DNA of 64,000 bases from a virus: UHGV virus genome UHGV-0311442. The stretch is one strand, 5' to 3'. Positions 21,482 to 41,597 of the stretch are shown here, in pieces. Numbering within the stretch: the first letter of the stretch is position 1; every line of letters begins with the position of its first letter. The notes beneath the pieces were generated by a model. It made no database searches and was not told the DNA's origin. It saw nothing but the letters and a program-made list of their open reading frames with translations. The position numbers were made by a program, and so were the translations under genes.

Positions 21482-21510
21482 GGTATATTCTCCTTTTTCG
21501 GTTTTCTTAA

Positions 21511-23534: not shown

Positions 23535-23740
23535 TTCCCCTTTTTCTTACGTTGTTTTTATATATTGTGACCTGACGTTGGTAAAACTTTTTATCAACAC
23601 TTTTCTTAAACCCATCGTTTAGTTAAGCAGGCCACTTTTTTCGCGCACTCTACTCCTCCCTACGGGGAGGAGCTATCTTATGCTTCGGTTGTAACACACG
23701 TCGGTCTTAGACCACCTTCCTTTTGAAATGGAGAGCTGTT

Positions 23741-23952: not shown

Positions 23953-24010
23953 GAAAAAAAAACGTGCTACTCCTACCCTCTAAGAGGGTAGGAGGTTACT
24001 TTATTTTTTT
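23953..24010. terminator. bidirectional rho-independent terminator
   Basis: hairpin CTCCTACCCTC-taag-AGGGTAGGAG flanked by A8 and T-run between convergent genes. Confidence 0.6.
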
Positions 24011-25331: not shown

Positions 25332-28300
25332 ATGGCTGTCGTCCTAGACCCACACTTCAAAAAACCGGGGAATAAAATAACCGGTGAAGCGGTCGCCGTC
25401 TTTGGTACGAAATACCGAATGTTGGTACCTGCCCACGCCCCTTTTTTCACCACATCCCTGGTGGTCAAGAGCGGCGGCAAAACACTGACCATAGGCGACG
25501 ATTACGTTATTACGCACCCGTACGAGACCGGTATGTTGCGCACAGCCTATCTCATTCACGGGATGATTTGGATTGTTAATGACAAATACAAATCGAATTT
25601 TACGGTAGATTACCACGCCGTTGGTTGTGGTCAGGCTACCCAACAACAGATTACCGCAGAACGCGAACTCAATAAAGATAAATACCCGTCTGCGTGTCAG
25701 TGGGACACCGTCATCGGGGACGTTTACTTTCCACCGGTCGATATCCAGTTCGATTGGGAGAATTGGAAAGGTGAACTGGAATTAATGCAGGCTATTGCTG
25801 GATTAGGCGATTCGTTAGGGGAAGTCGTGAGTCGGCTTAACCCCATCGCACGCAATACCCTGGATTTAGAATACCGTGCTAATAGCAAGGTTATCACTTC
25901 CGAGCAGTATGCCGTATACGACAATAAAGGTGGCTTCACCTACAACACTGCCCGTCATCGTTATAGCTTGAGTTATAAAACTGCAACCTTTAACGACTAC
26001 GCCCTGTCAGTGAAACACAGAATTCCTGCTATTCTGCCAGACATGACGAAATTGAATCCAAACGAACAGATCGATTGGATGCTCTGTTATGCTAACGGCG
26101 GTGCAAGTATTCTACGGCTGCAGCTAAAACAGCGCAAAATCTCACTGGTCTTAACGGTCGCTATTGGTAGCGGTTCAACAAACTACGATTATACGTTAAT
26201 CAACGGCTTAACTGACGATGAGTTAAAAAACGATATCGATTTTAGTGTAACCCGACAACCCGGAAACGGTGTTTACGTCATCGTAGTAAAAACAAATAAA
26301 CAGACCATGGATTACACATTCAATGTCGATACGCCGCCTGATGAGTTCTCGGCAGGGTATTCGAAAACGGATGTTGCTAAATGGTTGAAGTTTAAAACGA
26401 ACATTAATTTAAACTGGTATGCGGCCGAAAACGATTATATTCAAATTCGTTCTTTACCCGGCGCACCAGAACCTGACATCGATAACGATGTTTACCAGTT
26501 AATAGTCAAATACCATCAGTTAGTTGAGCAGCTGTATCGTAACGCGCCTGCACACGAACACGTTACACGTAAGGACAACCCGCACACCGATACGTGGGGT
26601 CCGATCCGTGCGTTAGAGCTGAATGGTATTGCGACAGATGCCGCGTTAGCTTACGGGAAGACGAAACAGCAGTTAACGGATTATGTTAATGCTAAGTACC
26701 CAACACAAGCAACGTTAACCGCACAGAAAAAACTGCTTCGTGAATCGCCGAGCAAGAACGTTAACGGCACGATTACCACACTTCCGGGTTTTACTTCGTT
26801 CACGACGGAAGTTGATCCGGTCTCGATGTCGAAATACGTGAGTCCTTATTTTAGCGAAAGCTATGTTAGTAGTGGTCACAGATATCACGGCGCGCTTCGT
26901 TATACAGGAGCGAAAAGCGGTTTCAGTGCTAACTTTAATGCAGTGCCTGCCAACCTGCAAGATATTGACTTTATTGTTACTGGACGTAAAACAGCGTCTG
27001 GTAATGAAGCGGTCGGTAGGGTTGGTTTACGTTTCTACGAAAATCCTGGTAGTAACTCCGGTAAGTACGTAGAGATTACCGGTGAAGTCTGGTCCGGTAC
27101 TCTTACTATCGAACTGGCGTTGCACGGTTACGGTAGTCCGGTACCGGCAGTTCGGTATATTTCACAAGCTCCTAACCCGGCAATACCGGATGGGGATTTT
27201 ACGCTACGTTTTCAACTGAAGCGTACAGGGAATGTGTTTGACGTCGTTATTACCGTAAACAGTAAAACGTATAGCGGTAGGATTAACTTCAATAACATGG
27301 ACGCTGCGTTAGAAGCATTAGAGAATCAGCACCACTTTAAATCGCTGATCAATAATGTTGCCGACGCCGTTACCATTAGTTCGCAAAACAAAGGTAACAC
27401 GGTTACCATTAAGAAAGCACCGGATGTTGTTGACGAGACACGTTTAGGTGCCCAGTTTGTTGTTGATCCGAAATCCATCAAGTTTATTGGCCAAGGTTCA
27501 ACTGATGTTAACGTGGCTAACAACCCCGTAACGTTCCAAGCAGGTACTAACCAGCTTGTGCTATACCCCGATGACCGAGGATTGTTGTGGCGTGGTAAAA
27601 AACTCTTAGACCCCACCACCGTAGCCCCGTATCTGCCAGGCAATACCGCAGGTGGCACAGGTTTATTCTACGCAAGTTCGACAACAACGGTTACGATCAC
27701 CGGTAGCGGGATAAAAGCCTCGCCGTTCGTAGCGACCTTTATTCTTCCTACCGCGACCGATACAACAGCTCTGGCAGCTTGGCAGTTGACCGATGAGTTC
27801 GGTACCGCTGAAAACCTTGCAGCAACGCCAGCACTGATTGAAAAACTCGATGCGGAGTTCACCGGTAAGTTAGTTGCAGTTAAATCGTACATTAACGACA
27901 TGCAACTTACCAGCTCGGTTACTATCGATAAGATTACCTTTGGTTTAGGTAACGTTGCGAATACGCCTGATGTCGATTTACCGATTTCTACAGCACAACG
28001 TGCGGAGTTAGATAAATACTCGCCTAAAGTTCACCAACACCCGTTTACCGCTTTTGGTACAGGGAACGCAACCACAGCGCAACGTGGTCTGATTAAATTT
28101 GGTCTGGATGTGGATGATGCGACTTTAGCACTCGATGGGAGTGTGGTAATGGCGCAGACTTCCCAGATTGAAAAATTGGAGCGCGCTGTCAGCGGTGTTG
28201 ACTCGGAGGCACGTCTTGACATTATACGTTTTGGTGAGTCTGGTAACGACTTAATAGACGTTACGGTCAAAGACAAAATTCTGGTCACGCTTCCAGCTTC

Positions 28301-29654
28301 AACGTATTTTATCGGTGGTGAAACATACGACGTTCCGTTGATGACGATTAACGTCAGTGAACGTTTTCCGAAATTGAATACAGAAATCTACGCAGGGATT
28401 TTTGTTGATATTGTTGACAACAAAGCGAAGTATATTGTCCACGACAGCTACAGTCAGGCTGAAACGGATACCATGACGCGTGTAGGGTTGATTGGTGTTA
28501 ACGACATTTCTGAGGTGTTCGTTACGGAGATGCGTAATGTCACACGGTTGGGCGATTTCCGTGAACTGAAAGATCATAAAGCCGATGACAACGCACACAT
28601 TCAACGCTCCGCGTCACGTGCAGCGCTTGGGTTAGCTAACTTAACCGTAGGTGCGCCTTGCTGGGCTTCTGGACTCCAGGCAGTAGTACGCGGTGAAGCA
28701 GATTGGCGTTATGTTGTCGATGGGCAGTATAAAGCCTTAGACGGGGTGAAATACGACCAGCTCGCATCCAAGTGGATTTTTGACGCGAAAGGGGTAAGCG
28801 ATAACCTGCACGGGTTTATCCACAGCATGTTCCCAGCTTTTAAGAACGCAGGAATGCGGGTAAGTTGGGAAACAGAAAGTAACGCAAAAACCGGTACGGT
28901 GCTAGAAACTGTTTTAGGATGCTGGAAAAACACCGACGGCGAGTTTATGCGGTTGTCGTTACTTATCACTCGTGGTTATCGTTTAACTGACAGCAACGGT
29001 GAATATTGTTACGCAGGGTTCGGTTTGAACTTCGGTAGCGGGAAATCGGTAGTGTTAGGTTTCACACCAACGAAGCGTGTTACGCCTGCACCGTGGAATA
29101 CGTTACAACCTGACGTAACGTTTACCCACACCCGTGCTGCAAATAACGCAATAACGTTTAACGCAACATTGACCTTAGCGGGCACTACGTATACCATCGT
29201 GGTGTTTTTATCTGCGACTGATAAATACGTAAGTTGCACGGCAGCAGGGGGAGCTACGCAGAAAATCCCTCTAACTGACCGTTTAACTGGGTTCAATATC
29301 GCACCTATCGTTAACGATCCGTATACCCCTATTTACTACGGTTTAGGGGGACTTTATGAGGATGAAGTTCGTGCCAACATCCGTTCTACGGCAGATAGCG
29401 CAACCGCGAATAAAGTCTATGGTACGTTGTTAGACTATATTAGCAACTATTCCTCATTAAATCGTGTGCGCGTTATGGAATTGACCGGTGTCAGTTCAGA
29501 CCCCGAAACGCTTAATGCGTTAGTGGCAACTGAATTTAATAACAACCTGGCGGATTACGCTGCGTTACCGATACCTCCTTATCTTAACAAGGAGCGCGTA
29601 ATGTCGTTTATCGACACCAACAATAAAGTGCAGGCGGTAATCATTCGCGATTAA
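25332..29654 (+). CDS. tail fibre protein (1440 aa)
   Basis: AGGAG RBS; tail-fibre-type repeat motifs (GNVANTPDVDLPISTAQRAEL; GNATTAQRGLIKFG); N-terminal PFF module shared with the next three genes. Confidence 0.65.
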   Translation: MAVVLDPHFKKPGNKITGEAVAVFGTKYRMLVPAHAPFFTTSLVVKSGGKTLTIGDDYVITHPYETGMLRTAYLIHGMIWIVNDKYKSNFTVDYHAVGCGQATQQQITAERELNKDKYPSACQWDTVIGDVYFPPVDIQFDWENWKGELELMQAIAGLGDSLGEVVSRLNPIARNTLDLEYRANSKVITSEQYAVYDNKGGFTYNTARHRYSLSYKTATFNDYALSVKHRIPAILPDMTKLNPNEQIDWMLCYANGGASILRLQLKQRKISLVLTVAIGSGSTNYDYTLINGLTDDELKNDIDFSVTRQPGNGVYVIVVKTNKQTMDYTFNVDTPPDEFSAGYSKTDVAKWLKFKTNINLNWYAAENDYIQIRSLPGAPEPDIDNDVYQLIVKYHQLVEQLYRNAPAHEHVTRKDNPHTDTWGPIRALELNGIATDAALAYGKTKQQLTDYVNAKYPTQATLTAQKKLLRESPSKNVNGTITTLPGFTSFTTEVDPVSMSKYVSPYFSESYVSSGHRYHGALRYTGAKSGFSANFNAVPANLQDIDFIVTGRKTASGNEAVGRVGLRFYENPGSNSGKYVEITGEVWSGTLTIELALHGYGSPVPAVRYISQAPNPAIPDGDFTLRFQLKRTGNVFDVVITVNSKTYSGRINFNNMDAALEALENQHHFKSLINNVADAVTISSQNKGNTVTIKKAPDVVDETRLGAQFVVDPKSIKFIGQGSTDVNVANNPVTFQAGTNQLVLYPDDRGLLWRGKKLLDPTTVAPYLPGNTAGGTGLFYASSTTTVTITGSGIKASPFVATFILPTATDTTALAAWQLTDEFGTAENLAATPALIEKLDAEFTGKLVAVKSYINDMQLTSSVTIDKITFGLGNVANTPDVDLPISTAQRAELDKYSPKVHQHPFTAFGTGNATTAQRGLIKFGLDVDDATLALDGSVVMAQTSQIEKLERAVSGVDSEARLDIIRFGESGNDLIDVTVKDKILVTLPASTYFIGGETYDVPLMTINVSERFPKLNTEIYAGIFVDIVDNKAKYIVHDSYSQAETDTMTRVGLIGVNDISEVFVTEMRNVTRLGDFRELKDHKADDNAHIQRSASRAALGLANLTVGAPCWASGLQAVVRGEADWRYVVDGQYKALDGVKYDQLASKWIFDAKGVSDNLHGFIHSMFPAFKNAGMRVSWETESNAKTGTVLETVLGCWKNTDGEFMRLSLLITRGYRLTDSNGEYCYAGFGLNFGSGKSVVLGFTPTKRVTPAPWNTLQPDVTFTHTRAANNAITFNATLTLAGTTYTIVVFLSATDKYVSCTAAGGATQKIPLTDRLTGFNIAPIVNDPYTPIYYGLGGLYEDEVRANIRSTADSATANKVYGTLLDYISNYSSLNRVRVMELTGVSSDPETLNALVATEFNNNLADYAALPIPPYLNKERVMSFIDTNNKVQAVIIRD

Positions 29655-29667
29655 GGAGATTTTTTTG

Positions 29668-32600
29668 ATGAAAGCGTATCCTTACGATCCTCGGGGGACG
29701 AAAGCCGAGAATCACTTCTTAGAGGAGCGTATCATCGGGTCAGAAAATAACAACGATCGGGTGGTGATTTTAGACCATCGCCCGTTCTTTGAAGATTTAG
29801 TCGTCAGACAACCAGGTTCAACCACCCCACTGAGTCGTGGGGTGGACTACGAACTGCAATATCAGCTGACGGAACTGGATGACTCGGTAGCAGCCAACGT
29901 GTATTGTGGGGTACACCTTATCAACCCATCCATCAAAGGCATCGTAACCTTTGAAGGGCAAATGCTCGGCGGTACGTTCTACGACCCGTTTGTTGATATT
30001 CTCGATGAACTGGTGAAATATTTGAATAACCCAGTCAGTGCTGACTGGCTGTTATTAGACGGTAGACCATCGTTATATCCAGCGACGCCAGCAGCAACGT
30101 CCTGGGCGGATTTGCTGAACAAAAAATATTTAGCGTCGGCAGTTCACGATATTGAATTGAAAACCGACGACGCTAACCAGCTAATTAAAGACAAATTAGC
30201 TGAAGTTAAAGCGTTAGTGACTGCGTTGGGTAAAGAAATCGAAGCATTTAACTACCCGGCACATATCGCAGCGAAGAACCCGCACGAAACCACATCCGCG
30301 CAGATTAACGCGCATCCTGTTAACTTGAAAACACCCGACACCTTTATGGCGTACGGGTTAAAGTTGAAAGCACTGACGGATGAGCTGAAAGCGTTTCGTT
30401 TACCGCAGTCGGTTATCGATACGTATATCTCTCACTGGATTTCTTCGGAAGTGCGGGGCGTGTTTAACTGTACGGTGTCAGGAAACCGCGCACAGTTCCG
30501 TTCGAAAAACGGTGAGTCCGAAATCATTTTTGCCAACGATGGTTTTACGTTAAAATCCAACGGTTCTGTGGTGTTAGCGGTAGGGCATCTGGAAGGCACA
30601 GGTGCAGGACGCTATATCAACTGGCGTGCCGGTAAAAACACATTACGCATCGAGTCAACAGGCGATGCTTTAGGGATGAACAAACTCACCCTGAACGGTA
30701 ACCCGTTACTGACTACCACGGCGTTGATGGAATACCAACAAGATCCAGATGCGGGTTCTGGTGGCGGTGGCGACCCTGATGACTCGAAGGTGTACATTGA
30801 AGGTCGTAATGGGATTAGCTTTACCGGTAAAGGTTCTCGCGCCGACCCTATCGTGGGGACTATCGACCCAACAAAAGCGACAACCGCCGAAAAAGGCGTC
30901 GCTAAACTTAAAACAGGTAAAGGTACAGAAACGACTGGGGTTGCTGCAACACCGGCTTCGTTAGCACCATACTCGACCGACCTATCGGGGTATGTGGCTA
31001 AAACGACCATGATTAACGGTAAGCCGATGAACGACGGCTCCAGGACAATCACGAAAGCTGATCTGGGGTTAGGGCGAGCGGATAACACCGCAGACGTTGA
31101 CAAGCCGTTGTCTACCGAGTTAAATACGGCGCTTAGTGGTTTAGCGGATGCAGGTCACCACCACGATTGGTCGGAACTAGGCATTTATAAAGCCTCGCAA
31201 ACCGTTTACGGTATCGGTCGTTACGCAACTAACCAGAACGGTTTGGTTGAAAACCGTGCAGTGGTGCCGAACGTCTTAAAAGAACTTTCGGCGCGTTTAG
31301 ATGTGGTCGCCGCGGCGATTGCAAACGCGAAAGAAGGGTCGGTAACAGATTTCGCTGCGGTAAAAGGCGCAGACTGGCGCTTTAATAGCCAGGGTACGGC
31401 AATCTCCGTTCAAGATTTGAAATATTTCTATTTGCTGAACGGTGCGAAAGCTGATAGCGCCGTTACAGGTTCGATTGACCTGCAAACTACGCCGATGTTT
31501 AACTGGTTCTCACCGAACAACCAAATTGAGACGACCTGGCCTACGGGGAAAGTGAGTGCTGGTAAGGGCATTAGCTGGACAGGTATTGAAGAACCACCAC
31601 TAATGGGTTTCCAATCTGTTCCGGTAGGTAAAACTGCCTCACAGATGGGCGACCAGTCAGTTGTTACTGTGTTGGCCAAAACGCGGGTAAGAGCACGCCA
31701 GCCGAAGCTTTGGGTTTATGCCGCTGGAGGTGGCCCGGTTACAGTTTACATTAACGGTATCCAGGCAGCCACAGGCCAGTCTCCGCTCGTTGCAGTGTAC
31801 GAAACATCAGCGGACGTTGAAAACTACACCGTAGCGGTTAAAGCTGAGTGTAGCGACACGGCTAAATCCGCAGCGGTGCAATTCGAAATTTACGACGGTG
31901 ACTACCCCGTTTATTTCAGTGGCCCTGAAACGCACGTAGAGCTTCTCCAAGAGTTTGTTACAACACACGTAGGCATTCGTCATTATCTGTACGTTAACAT
32001 GCTCACAGGCTCTCTGTATTCGCGTACTGAGCCAATTCAGAGTATTGCAGTTGACCCTGAGCGCGGTTATATCGGCTACGTTGATATTGTTGCCGGTGAA
32101 TCTTACTCGAATAAAACCGTGAGTTTTGAAACCACGTTTGATTTCGGGAAAAGTACCGAGGTTAGTGAGCACATCGACGCTCGTAAAGCACACGGACTCA
32201 GTTCTGTAGACTGGACGTTAACGGATAACCCACGGTTGCCGTTATTAAATCGTGCGATTGCTGAACCGAGAACGTGTATTTTTAGAAAAGCGTTAACGGC
32301 CGGTACTGGTGATGTTTTTCATCTGGTAAGTCGTGGTCTTTATACCTACGCACACAACCAAAACGTGAAGTCCAGTCTTCAATACGTTGTGATACCTGAG
32401 GGTGCTACACCGTATTGCTGGTTTACACCGTTTAACCCGAAAGAAAACAACGCGCCGACGTTCGAAGGTTCGTTTGCGTTCGACGTTGACGATGTCGGTG
32501 GAACACAAGCACTCACGGCTGCACCGGATTTGGTGCTGTGTACGTCAACACAAGGTAGCAGCGTTAAACGTCGTTACGTACGTATTGACCTAACTGCCAA

Positions 32601-33849
32601 AGCGTGTAAGCTGGGGATTGGTTCTCGTTCAGATTCTGCTGTTACGGATATCCCGTTAGTGATGGAGGAATCTGGGGAAACGGCGGTGGTGGCAACGTTT
32701 AAGGATGTGTTGTTCAACGGCGAGGAAACCAACGCAGCGATACTCGACTTGATAGGCTGGGGTCCAAATAAAGACAAAATCTCTGCAAACCATGCGCCAC
32801 GTGGTATGATTCGTTATCGTTACAACGTAAACACTCGGGTATTACGTTTAGCACTCTCATTCTCACAGTTCGGAACGACAACAGTTAAGCAACGTCAGTT
32901 GGAAATTCAATTCCCGTTTGATTTAGTGGATTACTTCACCGGTGACGGTGTAGGGTTGTCGTTTAAAGAACTGTCTGCGAAATGCCGTGTAACGATTAGC
33001 CACGCACTGATTGATCCGGTCACGACTAAAATCGATATTGATAAGTACCATTACTTACGCTCGTTATTTGAGTCGTATTTGGACGCATCTGTTGGTTATT
33101 TGGCTGATACCAAAGACGTCGACTTTAGTCAGTCTGTGATTGACCCAGCGACTTATGAGATTAGTCAGAAATACCGCGTTACCGAAAGCATTGCGCTGCC
33201 GACCGGCCAGGGAAGTGTTGCTGTTTCCCATGACGGCCAGTTACCTGCGCAGTTCTTTGACCGTAAGCTTTCTCGTGGTGCTTTGATGGCCAAGAAAGGT
33301 GAACTTCATGCCTCCTGGAACAATGAGTGGAGTACATCCAAAGCTGCCGCAAACCGGTATCGGCATAAACTCATTCTACGCTTTGCGCAAGGTGCTGATA
33401 AACAGCAGTACCGTGTTGCAAAAGTGGCAGGAACGGTGAAGTGTAACTGGCCGGGTAAGGTGATTATCGGCGATGCTGGGAAGGACGCGTATGTATCAGC
33501 TATTGATAGCGTGCCGTTTGCGCTTTCGACCAGCGCGGACACAGGTAAAGCAGTTACCCTTACGCCAAAGGATCTACGTGTAGGGCAGGATATTTATATT
33601 GTCTTAGAACCACCGGGTAATAATCCTGAAGGCTACGAGCTTAACTTTACCTGTTCGTTAGATGTCACTGACGAGAACGGTGTTCGTCAAGACCAACTCA
33701 ATGCGCAGAGCTTCGAACTCCGTAGCGGCGAAAGTCAATTCTTAATGGAGAAACGCAATCCGTACCACATCACGAGTAAAGCGTGGAAGTGGATTTTGGC
33801 TGTACTGAAACGAGAACTTAACGGGAAGCAGTTAGGGAATCGTACTTAG
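29668..33849 (+). CDS. tail fibre protein (1393 aa)
   Basis: AAGGAGA RBS; classical fibre motifs KATTAEKGVAKLKTGKGTETTGVAATPASL and ADLGLGRADNTADVDKPLSTELNTALSG. Confidence 0.7.
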   Translation: MKAYPYDPRGTKAENHFLEERIIGSENNNDRVVILDHRPFFEDLVVRQPGSTTPLSRGVDYELQYQLTELDDSVAANVYCGVHLINPSIKGIVTFEGQMLGGTFYDPFVDILDELVKYLNNPVSADWLLLDGRPSLYPATPAATSWADLLNKKYLASAVHDIELKTDDANQLIKDKLAEVKALVTALGKEIEAFNYPAHIAAKNPHETTSAQINAHPVNLKTPDTFMAYGLKLKALTDELKAFRLPQSVIDTYISHWISSEVRGVFNCTVSGNRAQFRSKNGESEIIFANDGFTLKSNGSVVLAVGHLEGTGAGRYINWRAGKNTLRIESTGDALGMNKLTLNGNPLLTTTALMEYQQDPDAGSGGGGDPDDSKVYIEGRNGISFTGKGSRADPIVGTIDPTKATTAEKGVAKLKTGKGTETTGVAATPASLAPYSTDLSGYVAKTTMINGKPMNDGSRTITKADLGLGRADNTADVDKPLSTELNTALSGLADAGHHHDWSELGIYKASQTVYGIGRYATNQNGLVENRAVVPNVLKELSARLDVVAAAIANAKEGSVTDFAAVKGADWRFNSQGTAISVQDLKYFYLLNGAKADSAVTGSIDLQTTPMFNWFSPNNQIETTWPTGKVSAGKGISWTGIEEPPLMGFQSVPVGKTASQMGDQSVVTVLAKTRVRARQPKLWVYAAGGGPVTVYINGIQAATGQSPLVAVYETSADVENYTVAVKAECSDTAKSAAVQFEIYDGDYPVYFSGPETHVELLQEFVTTHVGIRHYLYVNMLTGSLYSRTEPIQSIAVDPERGYIGYVDIVAGESYSNKTVSFETTFDFGKSTEVSEHIDARKAHGLSSVDWTLTDNPRLPLLNRAIAEPRTCIFRKALTAGTGDVFHLVSRGLYTYAHNQNVKSSLQYVVIPEGATPYCWFTPFNPKENNAPTFEGSFAFDVDDVGGTQALTAAPDLVLCTSTQGSSVKRRYVRIDLTAKACKLGIGSRSDSAVTDIPLVMEESGETAVVATFKDVLFNGEETNAAILDLIGWGPNKDKISANHAPRGMIRYRYNVNTRVLRLALSFSQFGTTTVKQRQLEIQFPFDLVDYFTGDGVGLSFKELSAKCRVTISHALIDPVTTKIDIDKYHYLRSLFESYLDASVGYLADTKDVDFSQSVIDPATYEISQKYRVTESIALPTGQGSVAVSHDGQLPAQFFDRKLSRGALMAKKGELHASWNNEWSTSKAAANRYRHKLILRFAQGADKQQYRVAKVAGTVKCNWPGKVIIGDAGKDAYVSAIDSVPFALSTSADTGKAVTLTPKDLRVGQDIYIVLEPPGNNPEGYELNFTCSLDVTDENGVRQDQLNAQSFELRSGESQFLMEKRNPYHITSKAWKWILAVLKRELNGKQLGNRT

Positions 33850-33887
33850 GACAGGCTGCCTGCGGGCAGTTGTGTGTCCGTAGGTAA

Positions 33888-33924
33888 CCCCTCCCTGTAA
33901 TGGGGAGGGGTATCCATTTTATTT
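33888..33924 (+). terminator. rho-independent terminator
   Basis: hairpin CCCCTCCC-tgtaa-TGGGGAGGGG followed by TATCCATTTTATTT. Confidence 0.55.
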
Positions 33925-33943
33925 AAAAGTAGGAGTCTTTACG

Positions 33944-36900
33944 ATGCCGAGAGAAGACGCGGCGCAGTTTAACGGTACGCTAAGCACAGCGACGTACCCT
34001 AACCGATTTAACGTGGTCATTCCGCCTGAAGGACCTTTTTATCGTATCGGATTAAAACTCACAGTAGCCGACGATACCGCGCCTAACGGACGTCGTACTC
34101 TGATTGAGGGGTTGGACTACTATTTAGGCTATTACTTTAAAGAACTCGCAGAAGCTGAGCAAGATCAGATTTACGGCGGGTTCATGTTGCTGACCGCAAC
34201 AGAAATCGAATATGAGATTTTAGGGGTAGCACGCCAGTATCGTGTACCACAATCTGAAATCGGAAAGTTCTTAGTTCGTACTGACCTGAAAGACCCACGT
34301 AACGTGGACTGGTCAGAGTTAATGGCGTATGCGCCAGTTATTCAACCCATCGATCCTCCTGCTAACTTAGAAGAAGCTATTCTGAGGGATGAGGTTGTTA
34401 AAGCGTTAAACGATATCCGTAAGAAAATCGTTCAACGTTCAACAGAGTTAGATGCAGCGTTTACCGAAGTCACTAACCTGATTTACGAGAACGGTAAAAA
34501 GGTTTTCGACGAGGAGTTATACCAACACCACCTTAATCCTAACGCACACCAGTATACGACCACTGATGTTGGTGCCCTTCCGGTTTTGGGACGTGCTGTC
34601 GACGCTACAAAAGCGTTTGGACTGACGATTGACGAATTGGCTACGCTGATGGGTTCGGCGGGTATTGAGCAATCAGACGTTGATCAGTTAATGGGTGAAG
34701 CCCTTGGTACCGTTTACGGTCGTTGGGGTAGCACAAACGGTAACGAGCTGACGTTTAAAACCGCAGGCGGACACATCATCAGTATCCGTGGTGATAAGTG
34801 GTTAATTACCTCACCGCAACCGTTGGTGATTAAAGCAGACCAGGACAACAACGAATCGGGTTTGGCGGTTGAATTTAGTGCGGGACTGAATACGCTTTGG
34901 GTGCACTCTGGGACAGAACAGGATGTATTAGCGCCGGTTTACAACTCTGTGTATTTGGTTACACCAGAAATGGTGAACATGTACCTGACGTCTGTAACGT
35001 TACTTGAAGCAAATGCCTATTTCAAACCATCAGACAGCGTAAAACCATACGGTACAGCGAAGCAGTCTAATCCGCTAACGTTGAACGCGAATATTCCCAC
35101 AGCAACCGAGTCGGTTTATGGGGTGTTTTCGATTACGAATATCGCAACCTCCGTAGCACTAGGCACTGCTATTTCCCAAAAGGCGGTGACCGAATTAAAA
35201 GACCGGTTAGACTTGTACGTTGACGATGACTACACGGTTAACGGTAAAGGGTTTGTTAAGACAGGCGATAAAATGGTGTTAACCTTAACGAAAACCGATT
35301 TCGGTATCGATAAGATGGATAACACCATGCCGATCGCTAAACCGGTAACAAAAGCGTTAGCGAATGTGCTGAAAAATAAAAGTGTGAAGGAGCACACGCA
35401 CACTACCGCCGATTTGGATAATGTCCCGATTGGTAGTGCGACTGTAGATGGTATTTTACAGTTGTGGGATGCGATTGATGCCACGAATGATAAAGCCGTC
35501 ACGTCTCGTCAAGGGTGGTTGTTCGCAAAAGAGATCAAGAAGGTTTCCGATAAACTGAATACCATCTTACCTGCGTGGACTGTCGGTGGGGCGAAGTTCG
35601 GTAACAAAAACTTCTTACCCATTCCGGCACTCGGTAATTATTCAGGTTTTACAAAGAACCAGTCCTATCAGAAAGGCGTTGTAGGATATCAACAAGGTAA
35701 AGTTTATTCGTTACGTAATGCTTCTAATGGTGTACCTGGTACAGAGGCTATTTATTACGGTTATGCTGATATCAATACGTCGAATGCATTTGAGAACCCT
35801 CAGCAAACTTCGGTGAAATACCATCCTGCTGGGATGAGTAAATATCCTGGAGTGACCTTAAAAGCTATTTTGATCGGTGGTCAGGAAGCGATTATTTGTC
35901 TGGGTTCTGACAATAACCGTTATCTGGTCTTGTTCAATGGCTCGATGGACCACAGTAAGCACACAGTGGTGTGCCGTGTTACAATGCCGAATTATCGCGA
36001 TAATAGTCCCACTGGTTCAAACGAGATTCCGTGGAATCCTCGGCCAGAATCTGACGATGTTGTTCTGGTTGACGACCACGTTTACCTTCTTCGCTCCACG
36101 GTAAATAACGCTGCTTATGCCGTGGCGGCATGGCGTTTACGTAAAGCCGATTTGTCTACTAATGTTGCGTTAGAATTTGAACGTGTAACGTTAAATGGTG
36201 AAATGGGACAATTCGGAGATAACCTCTGCCTAAGAATTGGCCAGAAGACCGAAGAGTCGCAGACTGGTCAATTCTTCACGTATTACCCACCCGAGGCACG
36301 GGCTAAATGGACAATCGGTCACAACTTTGTCCATGGTCCAGAATGTAACCATGCTTGTGCGGTGCGTGACAGTGTGATTCGTGTGAATCATGTACCCACT
36401 GTGTGGTTTGCGGCTGCCGACGGTTCGACGATTAATTTCCGTCAATGGTCAACAAGTTTCACAATCGATACGTTAACGGGTAGAGTTACGTTGGAGGGTG
36501 CCGAACGTTTCCCCATTAAGGCTGATACTACCACACTGACGTTCGCGGATGGTTCAACTGTAGAAACCAGTCGTAAGTGGGGCGGTGGTCAAGCAAACAA
36601 TCGTTGTTTTGCAACGTATGCTAAACCTAACGGCACCGGAATGATGCTTTCCTGTTGGCAGGTTAACGATGCGGACCAGATGCCGAATGTTTCTATTAAA
36701 GGAACGCAAGGCAAAGAGTTTTTCGATTATTTGCGTTACGATAACCCGAACAATACCTCAGGCGAAGGAACGTTTACTTGGGATAAAGGCCGTGGTTCTA
36801 TCTATACCATCGGTCTTTCTCATCCTGTCGGTATCGGTGGTTCGAATAAGGTTTGGCTATCCAATCCACGCAACCGTTATACGATCGAAGTAGAAGTTGA

Positions 36901-39127
36901 CCCAAGTAAACCTTATGACGTTCCTGGATATAGCGGTTATGGCCCGAACAACAACCGTCGAGAAGTTGATGCAACCCTTTACGAACAGTTAAGCTGTATG
37001 GCTGCTTGCATGACTCCAGAGGAGCGTCACGGCCAGTTAAACGGTTGGTATTTGACGAAAGCGGAAACCTTCCCATATCGAAACATCTACGGTAACTTTG
37101 CCCTGTCATCAGAACGGCTGACGTTAGAGGAAGCGGATCGCCAGAAGATGATTAGGATGATTGTCGATGGTGCACCATCTGGTCAGGCAAACGGTTACGC
37201 GAACGAGCGCATCAGCGCAGCACACCAAAGCGGTAACGCGTTGTTTGCGCTCTGGTTGCTAGGCATTAACACTGTTTGTGAGTTCGACTTATTACAAGTC
37301 TCATGCATGAAAATCTTGAGTAACGGACGTCGAGTTCTCGACATCTATTATTTCATGGTGAGTCCGACTAAAGAAAACGGTTATCTACGTTTTAACTCGG
37401 CTACTTTCAAACTCGTTGATTGGTTCTTAGACCTTGATTACGGCTTAAGTTATCAGTCTCTGAGGGAAGAAGCGGGTAATAAAACGCGACGTGTAGGCCA
37501 GCCAATTTTTGCTTCTGCCGACGGTGTAAACTTCGGTCTATGGCTACCTTATACGCTGACAATACGGAATATCGGGGACCTAAATGCTTTGGGTTACGCT
37601 GCGAAGTATACCTTCGACCCTGGGTCGGGTTGGACTCGCGTTCCCGGTAAGTCACAATTGCGTCGGATGGCCCCTGCTCATAATCCCGAAACAGGCTGCT
37701 ACATGGGTGCGGGTAATTGGGACAAGATGGCACTAATTTTCTCTAAAGCAGATCGTGTCTTCTGTTCAGGTAACGCATATACAGCCGAAGAGTTCGTTAA
37801 TGACACCAGATTCACAACTGGGGGACAGGCGGTTATTATCGCTGGTGTGGAAACTGCCGAAGGTTGGATTCTATATTTGACGGAAGAGGTCAGGTTAGAT
37901 TTCGGTAGTAATAGCTATACATTACCGACGTGGTTGGTGGATTTAAGCAATGAATTCCCAGAAAACCATGCTAACCAGACGTTCTATGTTCATGCTGCTC
38001 TTGTAGGTTCGAAAGCTCAATATCAGATCGGTCTGGAAAAGCTGCCGGATACGAGTTCGCGATTATTTGTTGGTACAGTTACAACCGATAAAAAGCGCAT
38101 AGTTGCTATTAACATCGATAAAGTGAAACGGTTAGGCAGGGTTCGTGAATTAGAAGAACACGCTGCTGTTAGAGATCAGCACGACGTTGCAGCGGCGTAC
38201 GATCGAAAAACGGGTCCACTCCAAACCTTGGTTAACCAACCGCTGAAAGCCCCCACGGCATCTGCGGGCAAGGGTGCAGGGTATGCCGATGGTCAGAGAT
38301 GGAATGCGTTGACCGGGATCACAACACGTCCCAAACTGCCGATACAGGAAACCTACGCAGGTTATAAAAGTATCGGTAGAGTAGCGTATGAGAACTGCGC
38401 TGATCAGTTCTGGCAGAAAGCGGTCGCTGCAAACGTTGCAGCGGCTACTGCGTCTGAGAACAGTCAAGCGGCAGCCGCGAACATGAAGTGGTTGGGCGCG
38501 TATACGAAACCGACTACAGGTGCGAATGCATATCTGGCGCTGAGTCTGCGTGTTAAAGTGCCTGGTAATCCCGGCACCGCTAATCGTAGACTAAAAATCA
38601 GGCTTGCGGCTCCGACAGGTATAACCCAAGTTCGTTACGGGTTAAACCAGTCTGGTGGCACGATGACTGAACAGACAGTAACGTTAACTGCTAACAGTTA
38701 TCTGGAAAAAGAACACGCCGGATTTAAGCCAGCCGAAGAAGTCCGTGTACATGCTACGTTTGTCATTCCAAAAAATGAATACGATAGCTACCGTACGAAG
38801 TTCGGTGCTGTTCAGCTGATTGACGTTGAGTCGAACACTGTCATTAAACAGACAGATATCGACACACCGTTTATCGTGTATACCGACACGGAGTTAGCAG
38901 CGCAATCTGGTTTGGTGTATAAAGCGGTTAAGGGTCAGTTCCATCAACTCCCGTCTCAACCTGTCGTCATTGTAACTGATGGACAGACAGGGACTACGCC
39001 ACCGGTGAAAACCTCGTTTGCTGACGGGACATTAACGGTCTACGTGGCAACCACGTACGATGCGGTTAACCCAGCACAAACCCGCGATATCGATAAGCTC
39101 CAGTTCAATCTTATGTTTACATCTTAA
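33944..39127 (+). CDS. tail fibre / receptor-binding protein (1727 aa)
   Basis: shares N-terminal GPFY...DYxLxY module; largest ORF of the operon. Confidence 0.6.
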   Translation: MPREDAAQFNGTLSTATYPNRFNVVIPPEGPFYRIGLKLTVADDTAPNGRRTLIEGLDYYLGYYFKELAEAEQDQIYGGFMLLTATEIEYEILGVARQYRVPQSEIGKFLVRTDLKDPRNVDWSELMAYAPVIQPIDPPANLEEAILRDEVVKALNDIRKKIVQRSTELDAAFTEVTNLIYENGKKVFDEELYQHHLNPNAHQYTTTDVGALPVLGRAVDATKAFGLTIDELATLMGSAGIEQSDVDQLMGEALGTVYGRWGSTNGNELTFKTAGGHIISIRGDKWLITSPQPLVIKADQDNNESGLAVEFSAGLNTLWVHSGTEQDVLAPVYNSVYLVTPEMVNMYLTSVTLLEANAYFKPSDSVKPYGTAKQSNPLTLNANIPTATESVYGVFSITNIATSVALGTAISQKAVTELKDRLDLYVDDDYTVNGKGFVKTGDKMVLTLTKTDFGIDKMDNTMPIAKPVTKALANVLKNKSVKEHTHTTADLDNVPIGSATVDGILQLWDAIDATNDKAVTSRQGWLFAKEIKKVSDKLNTILPAWTVGGAKFGNKNFLPIPALGNYSGFTKNQSYQKGVVGYQQGKVYSLRNASNGVPGTEAIYYGYADINTSNAFENPQQTSVKYHPAGMSKYPGVTLKAILIGGQEAIICLGSDNNRYLVLFNGSMDHSKHTVVCRVTMPNYRDNSPTGSNEIPWNPRPESDDVVLVDDHVYLLRSTVNNAAYAVAAWRLRKADLSTNVALEFERVTLNGEMGQFGDNLCLRIGQKTEESQTGQFFTYYPPEARAKWTIGHNFVHGPECNHACAVRDSVIRVNHVPTVWFAAADGSTINFRQWSTSFTIDTLTGRVTLEGAERFPIKADTTTLTFADGSTVETSRKWGGGQANNRCFATYAKPNGTGMMLSCWQVNDADQMPNVSIKGTQGKEFFDYLRYDNPNNTSGEGTFTWDKGRGSIYTIGLSHPVGIGGSNKVWLSNPRNRYTIEVEVDPSKPYDVPGYSGYGPNNNRREVDATLYEQLSCMAACMTPEERHGQLNGWYLTKAETFPYRNIYGNFALSSERLTLEEADRQKMIRMIVDGAPSGQANGYANERISAAHQSGNALFALWLLGINTVCEFDLLQVSCMKILSNGRRVLDIYYFMVSPTKENGYLRFNSATFKLVDWFLDLDYGLSYQSLREEAGNKTRRVGQPIFASADGVNFGLWLPYTLTIRNIGDLNALGYAAKYTFDPGSGWTRVPGKSQLRRMAPAHNPETGCYMGAGNWDKMALIFSKADRVFCSGNAYTAEEFVNDTRFTTGGQAVIIAGVETAEGWILYLTEEVRLDFGSNSYTLPTWLVDLSNEFPENHANQTFYVHAALVGSKAQYQIGLEKLPDTSSRLFVGTVTTDKKRIVAINIDKVKRLGRVRELEEHAAVRDQHDVAAAYDRKTGPLQTLVNQPLKAPTASAGKGAGYADGQRWNALTGITTRPKLPIQETYAGYKSIGRVAYENCADQFWQKAVAANVAAATASENSQAAAANMKWLGAYTKPTTGANAYLALSLRVKVPGNPGTANRRLKIRLAAPTGITQVRYGLNQSGGTMTEQTVTLTANSYLEKEHAGFKPAEEVRVHATFVIPKNEYDSYRTKFGAVQLIDVESNTVIKQTDIDTPFIVYTDTELAAQSGLVYKAVKGQFHQLPSQPVVIVTDGQTGTTPPVKTSFADGTLTVYVATTYDAVNPAQTRDIDKLQFNLMFTS

Positions 39128-39167
39128 CGCCACGAGACAAGGACGTCTCGGATTAAGGAGAGTGGCC

Positions 39168-40367
39168 ATGGCCTCCATTGTATATCAGTACCCTTTAGAT
39201 TTAACGGGAACCCTAACCTCTAACGCCGTGGAGCGTCAGGTTACGTTAGGTACAGGTAAAGTTAACCGTGCGTTTGCTTTTCCTGACGGACCGTTTTATG
39301 CTGATACGTTCCGCTTGCGGGTTGCCAATCGACCCGACGCGACGTATGAACGCGGAACGGACTATGAGTTGATTTTTGCACACCCGGGTTACGAGAAATT
39401 GACGAAGAACCGGGAAGTGGTAATGGCGGTTGTTGTAACGAACACCGCGATTCCGACCGATATCACGGTATCGGCGCAAGTAGTCGGTGGTCCGCAGTCT
39501 GCAAACGTGACTGCGATAGAACAGGCGATTGCCGAGTTGAATCTCGATAATCGAACTGTTGGCTTTAAAGACTTGCGAAATGTGCCGGACACGTTTCCTT
39601 CGGCACCAACGTATAAAGACGTCGGCGATATTTACGGCTTCGAATATATCATTACAGTGCTCGCTGGCATCAAAGATGCGATAACGGCGGGTGATGCTGT
39701 ACAGCTTGAGAACATCAAAGCGATTCTCGAAAGCCTGAAAAACGATTTCCTGGACGCGCTGAACGCGCACATTAACGCCACGGGTAATGTCCACCATCTG
39801 GATATTCATCAGGTTAACGGGTTAACAGAAACGGAGATCCGTGCACTTATCCGTGACGTACAATCTGCCATCGATGCAACCATTACTGATATTAATGCGT
39901 TGAAGAAAGCAGACGAAGCGTTAGGAAAACGTATTGATGCTGTTGTCAAATCTTTGGAAGCGTGGAACGACCAACTTAACATCGTTGCCCAAAACTACCA
40001 GAAGATGGCATTGGCATTGGCGAACCTAAATTCGCTAGTGTTACAGTTACAGAAAAATATCAACGATCTGAACACCAAACTCAACCAAGCGATTCAGCGC
40101 ATTGCTGCGTTAGAACAACGGGGTAATGAGTCCGATCAGAAAATTGATAATCTGCAACAAAACCTGGATGCGCTTAAACAACAGGTTGCGAATAACACGA
40201 ACGCAATCAGTCAGGCGAATCAGAACCTACAAAACCATATTGCGGCGGATAACCCGCACACAGGTTATCTCCACAAGAAATACGGCGGTGTGGTTCAGGC
40301 TCCAGTGCACGTTAACGCTAACTTGACGTCCCGTGATGACGTTCAGGCAGAAGCGGGTACGAAATAA
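39168..40367 (+). CDS. tail fibre-associated protein with C-terminal coiled coil (400 aa)
   Basis: start re-set to ATG 39168 with AAGGAGAG RBS; N-terminal FPDGPFY...DYELIF module; heptad-like Q/N/L-rich C-terminus. Confidence 0.55.
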   Translation: MASIVYQYPLDLTGTLTSNAVERQVTLGTGKVNRAFAFPDGPFYADTFRLRVANRPDATYERGTDYELIFAHPGYEKLTKNREVVMAVVVTNTAIPTDITVSAQVVGGPQSANVTAIEQAIAELNLDNRTVGFKDLRNVPDTFPSAPTYKDVGDIYGFEYIITVLAGIKDAITAGDAVQLENIKAILESLKNDFLDALNAHINATGNVHHLDIHQVNGLTETEIRALIRDVQSAIDATITDINALKKADEALGKRIDAVVKSLEAWNDQLNIVAQNYQKMALALANLNSLVLQLQKNINDLNTKLNQAIQRIAALEQRGNESDQKIDNLQQNLDALKQQVANNTNAISQANQNLQNHIAADNPHTGYLHKKYGGVVQAPVHVNANLTSRDDVQAEAGTK

Positions 40368-40423: not shown

Positions 40424-40434
40424 AAGGATACGTG

Positions 40435-40830
40435 ATGGCGATCAGTGTTAAAAATGTACGTGACCGAATCACCAACGTAGAGAACCAAATGGCAACTGGC
40501 CCACGTGTTGATCCGCAAGTTGCGTCGAAAGCACATAATGCCGCCGACACTTTTTCGGGTTGGACGCCAAGTCGGTTAGACTGCGGGGGAAGCTGTAGCT
40601 GGACGTGCTCAAACGGTTGTACGCATGGCTGTACGAGTTGTTCGGGCACCTGTACGTCGGTGTGTGTAGGTAGCTGCTCCTCTGCGTGCGGTAACCAGTG
40701 TACTGGATGTAGTTCAACGTGTTCTGGTGGCTGTTCAGGTTGCAGTGGGACCTGTGGAGGTGCTTGCTCGGGCCGTTGTTCTACGGGTTGTTCTGGTGCT
40801 TGCTCCGGTGGCTGTTCTGGCCCAACCTAA
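40435..40830 (+). CDS. Cys-rich repeat peptide precursor A (leader + (C-x3)n core, ~21 Cys)
   Basis: AAGGA RBS; N-terminal ~50 aa ordinary sequence then DCGGSCSWTCSNGCTHGCTSCSGTC... of only C/S/G/T/N/A/V. Confidence 0.6.
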   Translation: MAISVKNVRDRITNVENQMATGPRVDPQVASKAHNAADTFSGWTPSRLDCGGSCSWTCSNGCTHGCTSCSGTCTSVCVGSCSSACGNQCTGCSSTCSGGCSGCSGTCGGACSGRCSTGCSGACSGGCSGPT

Positions 40831-41448: not shown

Positions 41449-41597
41449 CTAAGCCCTCCAGTGGTAGTATGTCTATTACGCAATAACCGAGTTAATCGTA
41501 CGGGTTTACTACTGAGTTTCAAGTTACCGGTAGGCAATGGTGCGGTGGTTTCTATACCCTGAATGTCCGTTTGACCGTGAAATAATTGGAGCAATCA

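What the first reader, a model, noticed from the sequence alone, without database searches (positions are those of the whole stretch)
25332..40367. Four consecutive fibre genes sharing an N-terminal module
The first ~70 residues of all four proteins share a recognisable module (hydrophobic stretch, P-x-x-G-P-F-F/Y, then G/D-x-D-Y-x-L-x-Y), while downstream regions diverge and carry classical fibre repeats. This suggests several interchangeable receptor-binding proteins docking to a common site via a shared anchor, i.e. a branched or multivalent adsorption apparatus. The fourth, short protein has a coiled-coil C-terminus and may be an adaptor or chaperone.
Basis: partly seen in the sequence, partly recalled or inferred. 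Interest (0 to 1): 0.55.

Follow-up and report, generated by a model that had tools for sequence, protein, structure and literature searches.

The report
Jumbo-phage tail-fibre genes sharing one anchor
Four neighbouring genes of a giant (phiKZ/SPN3US-type) phage really do share an N-terminal anchor domain, but this is an already described baseplate-fibre gene family, and the four proteins probably assemble together at the fibre base rather than being interchangeable.

Summary
Four consecutive + strand genes each begin with a ~125-residue domain: P1 25332-29654, P2 29665-33849, P3 33944-39127 and P4. P4 starts at 39168, not 39060. A profile built only from phiKZ, Goslar, PCH45 and RSL2 proteins finds exactly these four among 262 window ORFs (E 7e-21 to 4e-9; next best 0.32).

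The family is already known. The window is an SPN3US/Erskinevirus-like jumbo phage, and the genes are orthologues of SPN3US gp170, gp169, gp168 and gp167. SPN3US gp168-170 are the published "paralog family C". They are relatives of phiKZ gp131-135, whose "gp131-like N-terminal domains" were modelled by cryo-EM in 2026 as a hetero-hexameric fibre base under gp130. A gp130 homologue lies divergently just upstream (24001-25263, minus strand).

The N-domains fall into two classes. Class A is gp131-type and includes P1-P3. Class B is gp133-135-type and includes P4. In 71 of 77 IMG/VR loci at least one A gene lies upstream of the B gene.

I infer co-assembly of three A and three B subunits, not interchangeable docking. 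P4 is a conserved virion subunit, not a chaperone. P1-P3 carry variable distal parts; P3 has a predicted beta-propeller.

Verdict: a new member of a known kind.

The parts
24001..25263 (-). P0, 420 aa. Homologue of phiKZ gp130 and SPN3US gp171, the peripheral-baseplate protein under which the fibres attach in phiKZ. It is transcribed divergently from P1.
   Evidence: Full-length BLASTP to phiKZ gp130 gives 1.6e-12. Both proteins match phrog_3337 end to end, at 5.9e-145 and 1.9e-149. P0 is 65-88% identical to Asesino and SPN3US all along its length. A gp130-like gene sits on the minus strand immediately upstream of the first class A gene in 50 IMG/VR loci.
25332..29654 (+). P1, 1440 aa, class A (gp131-type) fibre subunit. 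Orthologue of SPN3US gp170 and Asesino gp190. Carries a ~200-aa insertion (about aa 480-700) that those two phages lack.
   Evidence: AGGAG ribosome-binding site. N-domain versus phiKZ gp131 gives 3e-9. The out-group HMM gives 1.7e-17. Identity falls from 78% at the N-terminus to 30-44% at the C-terminus. phrog_7557 matches at E = 0.
25332..25706 (+). P1 N-terminal anchor domain (aa 1-125)
29665..33849 (+). P2, 1394 aa, class A fibre subunit. Orthologue of SPN3US gp169 and Asesino gp189. The start is TTG 29665 or ATG 29668.
   Evidence: AAGGAG ribosome-binding site. phrog_8078 matches at E = 0. Versus phiKZ gp131 gives 8e-9. The out-group HMM gives 2.1e-18. P2 shares its first ~555 aa with P3 at 1.6e-19. 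The C-terminal half is only 21-39% identical to its orthologues.
29665..30054 (+). P2 N-terminal anchor domain (aa 1-130)
33887..33911 (+). 11-bp G+C-rich hairpin followed by a T-rich tract, lying between P2 and P3 (terminator-like)
   Evidence: Pattern match only; function not tested.
33944..39127 (+). P3, 1727 aa, class A fibre subunit. Orthologue of SPN3US gp168 and Asesino gp188, all exactly 1727 aa.
   Evidence: phrog_7449 matches at E = 0. The out-group HMM gives 4.4e-9. Versus phiKZ gp131 gives 2.8e-4. The last ~150 aa are only 8-39% identical to the orthologues.
33944..34345 (+). P3 N-terminal anchor domain (aa ~1-134)
35678..36944 (+). Predicted beta-propeller in P3 (about aa 580-1000)
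39168..40367 (+). P4, 399 aa, the only class B (gp133-135-type) subunit. Orthologue of SPN3US gp167 and Asesino gp187. Architecture: N-domain, then two helices, then a ~140-residue single helix (coiled coil), then a C-terminal NPH..YLHK motif.
   Evidence: AAGGAG ribosome-binding site. phrog_2163 matches at 9.5e-103, the same family as phiKZ gp133/134/135 at 1e-141 to 1e-156. Versus phiKZ gp135 gives 8.7e-14. AlphaFold2 predicts a beta-sandwich at aa 10-108 (pLDDT 80-88) and helices at 153-173, 177-202 and 221-359. Identity to orthologues is a uniform 66-83%.
39168..39548 (+). P4 N-terminal anchor domain (aa 1-127)

Best explanation
The four genes are this phage's copy of the Chimalliviridae baseplate-fibre paralogue family (phiKZ gp131-135; SPN3US gp167-170).

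Shown here:
- Each protein begins with a ~125-residue beta-sandwich 'gp131-like N-terminal domain', followed by a helical segment.
- The domains fall into two old classes. Class A comprises P1, P2 and P3 and is gp131-type. Class B comprises P4 and is gp133-135-type.
- A gp130 homologue is encoded divergently right upstream.

Inferred by homology with the phiKZ cryo-EM model:
- Six N-domains, three of class A and three of class B, plus a bundle of their following helices form the base of each peripheral fibre.
- That base docks beneath the gp130 homologue on the outer rim of the baseplate.
- P4 is the conserved, invariant B partner, probably a homotrimer held by its long coiled coil.
- P1-P3 supply the A positions and carry the long, fast-evolving distal parts that contact the host. 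These include a beta-propeller and beta-sandwich domains in P3.

So the shared module is an assembly and anchoring device for one composite fibre system, not a plug that lets alternative fibres compete for one socket.
For: Homology to phiKZ:
- BLASTP: P1 vs gp131 3e-9, P2 vs gp131 8e-9, P4 vs gp135 8.7e-14, P0 vs gp130 1.6e-12 over the full length.
- The N-domain profile hits gp131, gp133, gp134 and gp135 at 8e-22 to 1e-18.
- PHROG families are shared.
- The gene order gp130(-)|paralogue array(+) is the same in phiKZ, Goslar, SPN3US, Asesino, pVa-21, PCH45 and RSL2, and in a 310-kb metagenomic contig.

Published structure: PMC13250141 models six gp131-like N-domains and a six-helix bundle under gp130, with twelve fibres per virion.

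Two classes:
- The neighbour-joining split has bootstrap support 245/300, and all eight phages examined carry both classes.
- Of 77 IMG/VR loci, 48 are gp130|A|B, 20 are SPN3US-like with two or more A genes plus B, and 3 have one A with two or three B genes.

Non-redundancy: phiKZ gp131-135 all lack transposon insertions (PMC12676376). SPN3US gene 171 is essential and gene 168 is 'expected' essential (PMC5105663).

Virion location: SPN3US gp167-171 were all detected in virions, and gp168-170 were absent from a tailless mutant (PMC5694885).

Conservation pattern: P0 and P4 are uniformly conserved, whereas P1-P3 show an N-to-C gradient.

Fibre nature of the wider family: Peptidase_S74, PKD, Collar and gp53-like C-terminal domains occur in 70 sampled relatives.
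Against: - No structure or stoichiometry exists for this phage or for SPN3US.
- The phiKZ hexamer is itself a 'candidate' model, made by docking AlphaFold3 models into 4.4-4.6 A maps.
- The phiKZ N-domain chains could not be found in either PDB copy. The fold library ends on 2026-04-08, and the sequence searches, including a profile search, returned none. So the fold match was not verified directly.
- SPN3US spectral counts put gp167 at only about 1.3-1.9 times each long protein, not the 3 times expected from a 3:1:1:1 ratio. This is a crude measure.
- The A/B split rests on a 142-column distance tree.
- 6 of 77 loci show no class A gene. Four of these have a truncated upstream flank and two do not.
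- Receptor binding by the distal domains is inferred only from the variability gradient and the predicted fold types.
Confidence: 0.65

Rival explanations
1. P1, P2 and P3 (and perhaps P4) are independent homotrimeric fibres. Each uses the same N-terminal plug to dock on equivalent baseplate sockets, giving a multivalent set of alternative receptor-binding proteins.
For: - Most phage fibres are homotrimers (general knowledge).
- Each long protein carries one trimer-type fibre-motif block.
- The phiKZ baseplate offers twelve sites of two kinds (PMC13250141).
- Many relatives have the same N-domain fused to very different C-termini.
Against: - The paralogous N-domains are only 16-22% identical, yet each is 71-86% conserved with its own orthologue. 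Each also has an orthologue as far away as pVa-21. That is the pattern of distinct positions, not of one socket.
- Classes A and B co-occur almost obligatorily.
- The phiKZ base contains six N-domains from four gene products.
- All phiKZ paralogues lack transposon insertions.
- Three fibre kinds do not map simply onto two site classes.
Confidence: 0.2
2. P1-P3 are mainly architectural proteins of the extended peripheral baseplate ('star lobe' material), not host-binding fibres. Host recognition would be done by other proteins, for example the DUF7941 proteins or other fibres encoded elsewhere.
For: - The SPN3US authors call them only 'baseplate/tail fiber candidates'.
- The Goslar study proposes other host-recognition elements: DUF7941 filaments and collar filaments. 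DUF7941 genes are present in this window.
- No Pfam receptor-binding or depolymerase domain was found in P1-P3.
Against: - The steep N-to-C divergence gradient, the mosaic segments and a lineage-specific insertion in P1 are typical of host-range determinants.
- P3 has a predicted propeller plus a CBM-like domain.
- phiKZ gp131 lies at the fibre and baseplate periphery, and its propeller is modelled at the distal fibre end.
- Relatives carry bona fide fibre C-termini.
Confidence: 0.1
3. P4 is a non-structural chaperone or assembly factor for the three long fibres.
For: It is short, is encoded last in the array and has a long coiled coil.
Against: - Its SPN3US orthologue gp167 is in purified virions at 70% coverage.
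- It carries the same anchor domain as the fibres and is full-length homologous to the phiKZ virion proteins gp133-135.
- It has no match to Tfa-, gp38- or gp57-type families.
Confidence: 0.03

Closest known systems
phiKZ gp131-gp135 paralogue family with gp130 (Sycheva et al. 2012; Xiao et al. 2026, PMC13250141)
   Same: - The N-terminal domain is homologous.
- The gene layout is the same, with a gp130 homologue transcribed divergently upstream.
- P4 falls in the same PHROG as gp133-135.
- The virion is a jumbo phage of the same family, with a peripheral baseplate.
   Different: - The copy numbers are mirrored. phiKZ has one class A gene (gp131, 771 aa) and three class B genes of ~460 aa. This phage has three long class A genes (1394-1727 aa) and one class B gene.
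- There is no gp132-like fragment here.
- The distal parts are unrelated in sequence. P3's predicted propeller shows no specific match to the gp131 propeller (4GBF is not among the top hits).
SPN3US 'paralog family C' (gp168, gp169, gp170) plus gp167 and gp171 (Thomas et al. 2016/2017; PMC5105663, PMC5694885)
   Same: Direct orthologues in the same order. P0 is 65-84% identical, P4 70-81%, and the first 100 residues of P1-P3 70-74%. P3 and gp168 are both 1727 aa.
   Different: - The distal halves have diverged to 8-50% identity.
- P1 is about 200 aa longer, with an inserted segment that matches nothing in 50,697 phage records.
- The authors did not list gp167 as a family member. The profile evidence here shows it carries the same anchor domain.
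Goslar gp30 | gp29 ... gp25 and most metagenomic chimalliviruses (two-gene form)
   Same: The same gp130-like gene, followed by a class A gene and then a class B gene. Goslar gp25 and gp29 are virion proteins by mass spectrometry.
   Different: These genomes have only one A and one B gene. The class B protein often ends in a Peptidase_S74 autochaperone, which P4 lacks.
Branched multi-tailspike systems such as CBA120 TSP1-4 and phiKp24 (comparison from my own knowledge, apart from the one-line mention of phiKp24 in PMC13282480)
   Same: Several receptor-binding proteins encoded in tandem and mounted on one baseplate through N-terminal attachment domains.
   Different: Those systems, as I recall them, use unrelated attachment domains and hierarchical docking of separate homotrimers. 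No homology to them was detected, and no beta-helix depolymerase was found here.

Membership tests
phiKZ gp131-135 / Chimalliviridae fibre-base paralogue family | N-terminal ~125-aa domain homologous to the gp131 N-terminal domain | tested here: met
   An HMM built without any window sequence scores the four proteins at 6.9e-21, 2.1e-18, 1.7e-17 and 4.4e-9. BLASTP to gp131 and gp135 gives 3e-9 to 8.7e-14. phrog_2163 hits all four.
phiKZ gp131-135 / Chimalliviridae fibre-base paralogue family | Tandem array next to a divergently transcribed gp130 homologue | tested here: met
   Window ORF 24001-25263(-) versus gp130 gives 1.6e-12 over the full length, and both are phrog_3337. The layout recurs in 8 phages, one metagenomic contig and 50 IMG/VR loci.
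phiKZ gp131-135 / Chimalliviridae fibre-base paralogue family | Presence of both N-domain classes: gp131-type (A) and gp133-135-type (B) | tested here: met
   P1-P3 cluster with gp131 and P4 with gp133-135, with bootstrap support 245/300. This class definition is mine, not a published criterion.
phiKZ gp131-135 / Chimalliviridae fibre-base paralogue family | Hetero-hexameric assembly of six N-domains plus a six-helix bundle under gp130 | not testable with these tools
   Only single-chain prediction was available. The P4 model does show helices directly after the N-domain. The phiKZ chains were not found in either PDB copy.
phiKZ gp131-135 / Chimalliviridae fibre-base paralogue family | Tail/baseplate virion location | not testable with these tools
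   Inferred from the orthologues. SPN3US gp167-171 are in virions, and gp168-170 are absent from a tailless mutant (PMC5694885).
phiKZ gp131 proper (orthology of P3 to gp131) | C-terminal seven-bladed beta-propeller related to PDB 4GBF | tested here: inconclusive
SPN3US paralog family C | Orthology and synteny with gp168-170 | tested here: met
   Same order and similar lengths. The first 100 residues are 70-74% identical to SPN3US (71-86% when Asesino is included).
Tail fibres with a C-terminal intramolecular chaperone (Peptidase_S74) | PF13884 domain at the C-terminus | tested here: not met
   P1-P3 have no Pfam hit at E <= 0.1, and P4 gives only sub-threshold coiled-coil matches. In contrast, 18 of 70 sampled proteins with the same anchor do have the domain.
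Tailspike depolymerases (right-handed beta-helix / pectate-lyase type) | Beta-helix catalytic domain | tested here: not met
   No Pfam match. The P3 distal model is a propeller plus beta-sandwich domains, not a beta-helix. The distal parts of P1 and P2 were not modelled.
Tail-fibre assembly chaperones (Tfa/gp38/gp57-type), considered for P4 | Homology to a chaperone family and absence from the virion | tested here: not met
   No such Pfam or PHROG hit. The orthologue gp167 is a virion protein.

The most novel reading that the evidence does not exclude
In this lineage each of the (presumably twelve) baseplate fibres may be built on a P4 homotrimer plus one copy each of P1, P2 and P3.

That would be a heterotrimer of three different 1400-1700-residue chains, joined only at the base and splaying into three different distal heads. 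It would be the mirror image of the phiKZ arrangement (gp131 x3 plus gp133, gp134 and gp135).

Triplication of one or the other class would then be a recurrent way for chimalliviruses to turn an A3B3 fibre base into a multi-specific one.
Probability: 0.3. Interest if true: 0.6.

Novelty: new member of a known kind. Interest (0 to 1): 0.3.

Why it matters
For annotation, these four 'hypothetical' or 'virion structural' proteins and the upstream 420-aa protein can be labelled as the peripheral-fibre module of a chimallivirus. The module consists of a gp130-like platform, three class A fibre subunits and one class B subunit.

For engineering host range in SPN3US-type therapeutic phages, the first ~200 residues and P4 should be kept. 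Only the distal parts of P1-P3 should be swapped.

The A/B pairing rule has three practical uses:
- It holds in 71 of 77 metagenomic loci.
- It gives a simple testable prediction about fibre-base stoichiometry.
- It offers a search handle for fibre genes in uncultured jumbo phages, because no model in the Pfam copy searched here covers this domain, although more than 3,400 50%-identity clusters carry it.

Tried and rejected
- Single-sequence PDB searches with all four proteins returned only coiled-coil or chance hits.
- A profile of the first ~200 residues against the PDB hit only the generic DW..L..P..FPP..H fibre repeat of 9d93 'tail collar fibers gp4'. No phiKZ gp131-N chain appeared.
- Foldseek with the P4 model found nothing significant. 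The best phage matches were T7-like tail-complex chains, at probability ~0.5. The fold library ends on 2026-04-08, so the phiKZ entry 9XQD is probably missing.
- An HMM built from P4 orthologues alone found P2 (2.5e-7) but not P1 or P3. Broader profiles were needed.
- A profile of P3 orthologues against the PDB gave no hit. The word-indexed homologue search for the P3 body found only 14 clade-restricted proteins.
- The search for related loci with the diverse N-domain alignment failed because it had no conserved 7-10-column stretch. The P4-family alignment worked.
- An exact-sequence look-up of P4 found nothing on record. tblastn of the P1 insertion against phages found no match.
- No internal repeats were found in P1-P3 by self-BLAST.
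- The first bootstrap attempts timed out or failed because of distance saturation. A BLOSUM-distance version succeeded.
- The antisense ORFs inside the four genes, such as 39246-39809(-), were rejected as genes. A comparably long open antisense frame (one of the three frames) is also present in Asesino and SPN3US, and the product is an Arg-rich, low-complexity sequence typical of the reverse frame of a coiled-coil gene.
- Sigma-70-type promoter matches in the region are fewer than in shuffled sequence, so nothing can be read from them.
Full report
**What is there**

The region holds four consecutive + strand genes:
- P1, 25332-29654, 1440 aa
- P2, 29665-33849, 1394 aa
- P3, 33944-39127, 1727 aa
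- P4, 399 aa

P4's real start is ATG 39168, preceded by AAGGAG. P1, P2 and P3 also have AGGAG-type ribosome-binding sites. A 420-aa gene (P0, 24001-25263) lies on the minus strand immediately upstream.

The window belongs to an SPN3US/Erskinevirus-like jumbo phage. DNA similarity to Erwinia phage Asesino reaches ~78% only in patches. Gene order and lengths match Asesino gp191|gp190-187 and SPN3US gp171|gp170-167. An IMG/VR contig of 225 kb is ~95% identical over the parts compared.

**Is the shared N-terminal module real?**

Yes.
- Pairwise BLASTP is uneven: P2-P3 1.6e-19 over 555 aa, P2-P4 1e-5, P1-P3 0.04.
- Profiles are decisive. PHROG 2163 hits all four N-termini at 5.7e-15 to 9.5e-103.
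- A profile made only from phiKZ, Goslar, PCH45 and RSL2 proteins picks out exactly these four among 262 six-frame ORFs of the window, at 6.9e-21, 2.1e-18, 1.7e-17 and 4.4e-9. The next best ORF scores 0.32.
- The module is ~125 residues long. In P2, P3 and P4 the similarity runs on through a DW..L..P..FPP fibre motif and a helix to about residue 200.
- An AlphaFold2 model of P4 gives a beta-sandwich at residues 10-108 (pLDDT 80-88), helices at 153-202 and one ~140-residue helix at 221-359.

**What it is**

This is a described family.
- Thomas et al. grouped SPN3US gp168, gp169 and gp170 as 'paralog family C, baseplate/tail fiber candidates'. They noted similarity to phiKZ gp131 and absence from a tailless mutant (PMC5694885; PMC5105663).
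- The 2026 phiKZ structural atlas describes fibre-attachment sites beneath gp130. [quoted passage not shown]

I tested the link directly.
- P1 and P2 match the gp131 N-terminus at 3e-9 and 8e-9. P4 matches gp135 at 8.7e-14.
- P0 matches gp130 over its full length at 1.6e-12.
- P0 and gp130 are both phrog_3337. P4 and gp133-135 are all phrog_2163 end to end.
- The layout gp130(-)|array(+) is shared by phiKZ, Goslar, pVa-21, PCH45, RSL2 and a 310-kb metagenomic contig.

**How widespread is it, and is it a fibre anchor?**

- The N-domain profile finds 3,470 50%-identity cluster representatives at E <= 1e-3, and 2,378 at E <= 1e-10.
- In all 150 best hits the domain occupies residues ~1-125 of proteins 122-1560 aa long.
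- Of 70 sampled, 18 end in Peptidase_S74. Others carry PKD, Collar, gp53-like_C or Phage_fiber_2 domains.
- No model in this Pfam copy covers the anchor itself.

**Two classes**

- A neighbour-joining tree of 26 N-domains from eight phages splits them into class A and class B. Class A holds gp131, Goslar gp29 and window P1-P3. Class B holds gp133-135, Goslar gp25 and window P4. Bootstrap support is 245/300, and every phage has both classes.
- I scored 77 IMG/VR loci, seeded on class B, with class-specific HMMs:
  - 48 show gp130-like(-)|A|B.
  - 20 are SPN3US-like, with two A genes visible within the 10-kb flank, plus B.
  - 2 have one A and three B genes, as in phiKZ.
  - 1 has one A and two B genes.
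  - 6 show only B. Four of these have a truncated upstream flank.
  - The order is always gp130, then A, then B.
- The common state is therefore one A plus one B. phiKZ triplicated B, while the SPN3US/pVa-21 lineage triplicated A.
- The three A paralogues have 1:1 orthologues in Vibrio phage pVa-21, so the triplication is old.

**Mechanism (inference)**

With the phiKZ model as template, the base of each fibre is an A3B3 ring.
- P4 supplies the B positions. It is uniformly 66-83% identical to its orthologues, as is P0 at 65-88%.
- P1-P3 supply the A positions. Their identity to orthologues falls from 70-86% at the N-terminus to 8-44% at the C-terminus.
- P1 also has mosaic segments and a ~200-aa insertion that matches nothing in 50,697 phage genomes.
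- That gradient is the signature of host-contacting distal parts.

The P3 distal model has mean pLDDT 67, with domains at 70-92. It contains a beta-propeller at about aa 580-1000, followed by beta-sandwich domains.
- The phiKZ gp131 propeller is not among the top hits.
- No beta-helix depolymerase or Pfam domain was found.

**Against 'interchangeable' fibres**

- Paralogue N-domains are far more diverged from one another than from their orthologues.
- Classes A and B co-occur.
- phiKZ gp131-135 all lack transposon insertions (PMC12676376).
- SPN3US gp168, gp169 and gp170 are roughly equimolar by spectral count per mass (1.08, 1.41, 1.00). gp167 stands at 1.90 and gp171 at 0.74.
- These data cannot tell a single P1/P2/P3 heterotrimer on a P4 trimer from three kinds of A3B3 fibres. 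Both predict that P4 equals the sum of the long chains.
- P4 as a chaperone is rejected because gp167 is a virion protein.

**Limits**

- There is no structural or stoichiometric evidence for this phage.
- The phiKZ hexamer is a docked-model interpretation at 4.4-4.6 A.
- The fold of the anchor could not be compared with the deposited phiKZ chains, which were not found in either PDB copy.
- Receptor binding is inferred.

**Verdict**

This is a new member of a known family. The modest additional insight is the A/B class rule and the mirrored gene expansions.

**Seen in passing**

- Just downstream lie two paralogous 132-aa proteins. Their C-terminal 82 residues carry 20-21 cysteines at a spacing of 4 (occasionally 3, once 8). 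They sit next to a 440-aa radical SAM enzyme, whose best, sub-threshold, matches are PapB ranthipeptide and 'CXXX-repeat target' peptide maturases, and a second 307-aa radical SAM enzyme.
- This cassette may be the more unusual feature of the window.

Noticed in passing
window 40432-40830 and 40841-41239 (+), with 41586-42485, 42507-43430 and 43414-44736 (+): Two tandem paralogous 132-aa ORFs (50% identical, both phrog_6085). Each has a ~50-aa N-terminal part and an 82-aa tail made almost only of Cys, Ser, Gly and Thr, with 20-21 Cys at a spacing of 4 (occasionally 3, once 8). They are followed by a 299-aa ORF (phrog_8030) and two radical SAM genes. The 440-aa radical SAM protein aligns over its full length, below the curated cut-offs, to the PapB ranthipeptide maturase (1.2e-33) and to the 'radical SAM peptide maturase, CXXX-repeat target family' TIGR04115 (6.5e-33). 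One Cys-rich ORF nearly reaches the TIGR04114 cut-off (19.4 bits against 20). Homologues of the Cys-rich ORFs (gp185, gp183), the 299-aa ORF and both radical SAM genes are present in Asesino; SPN3US has the 299-aa ORF and the radical SAM genes, but its gp166 gave no BLAST match to the Cys-rich ORFs. RSL2 also has radical SAM genes right after its fibre genes. This looks like a phage-encoded RiPP-like precursor and maturase cassette next to the fibre module. Two full-text searches with these terms found no description of it.
   Followed up: partly
window 26760-27430 (P1 aa ~477-700): P1 carries a ~200-aa segment that Asesino gp190 and SPN3US gp170 lack. It has no tblastn match in 50,697 phage records and no internal repeat. 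By eye it looks like a lectin or jelly-roll-like beta domain, but this was not modelled.
   Followed up: partly
window 25930-26470 (P1 aa ~200-380): Mosaicism in P1. This stretch is 68-70% identical to SPN3US gp170 but only 14-19% identical to Asesino gp190, although Asesino is closer at the N-terminus. This suggests module exchange between lineages.
   Followed up: no
window 45983-46513 (-) and 46579-47109 (-): Two tandem DUF7941 (PF25613) paralogues. This is the family proposed in Goslar to form a 'fiber cloud' anchored on the peripheral baseplate. It may correspond to the large SPN3US 'paralog family B', but I did not test that.
   Followed up: no
window 45247-45918 (+): A 223-aa ORF with a C-terminal DUF4376 domain (4.8e-11), lying just after the radical SAM genes. 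From my own knowledge, this domain is usually seen in phage tail-fibre-associated proteins.
   Followed up: no
window 33887-33911, 23970-23994 and 23653-23672 (+): Three strong G+C-rich hairpins (8-11 bp stems, of the form CTCC../ACCCCTCCC..GGGAGGGGT) followed by T-rich tracts in intergenic gaps. One lies between P2 and P3, inside the fibre-gene array. They may be terminators, attenuators or RNA-processing sites.
   Followed up: no
window-wide: 6581-8139, 18907-21520, 51282-53342, 55595-56398 and 61724-63068 (all minus strand): Several further tandem paralogue pairs or triplets of small ORFs were detected by all-against-all BLASTP. Local gene duplication is pervasive in this genome.
   Followed up: no
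N-terminal domains at window 25332-25706, 29665-30054, 33944-34345 and 39168-39548: The anchor domain has no model in the Pfam copy searched. Yet a 125-position profile recovers 3,470 cluster representatives at 50% identity, and in the 150 best hits listed the domain is always at the extreme N-terminus. It is a candidate for a new curated family.
   Followed up: partly
L013 (IMGVR_UViG_3300029126_000001, 225 kb) against window 29189-50328: A metagenomic viral contig is ~95% identical in DNA over most of the compared region, falling to 89% at the far end. P4 is 99% identical. The phage is therefore represented in IMG/VR. The best megablast match in the INPHARED phage collection is ~78% identical, in patches only.
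   Followed up: partly
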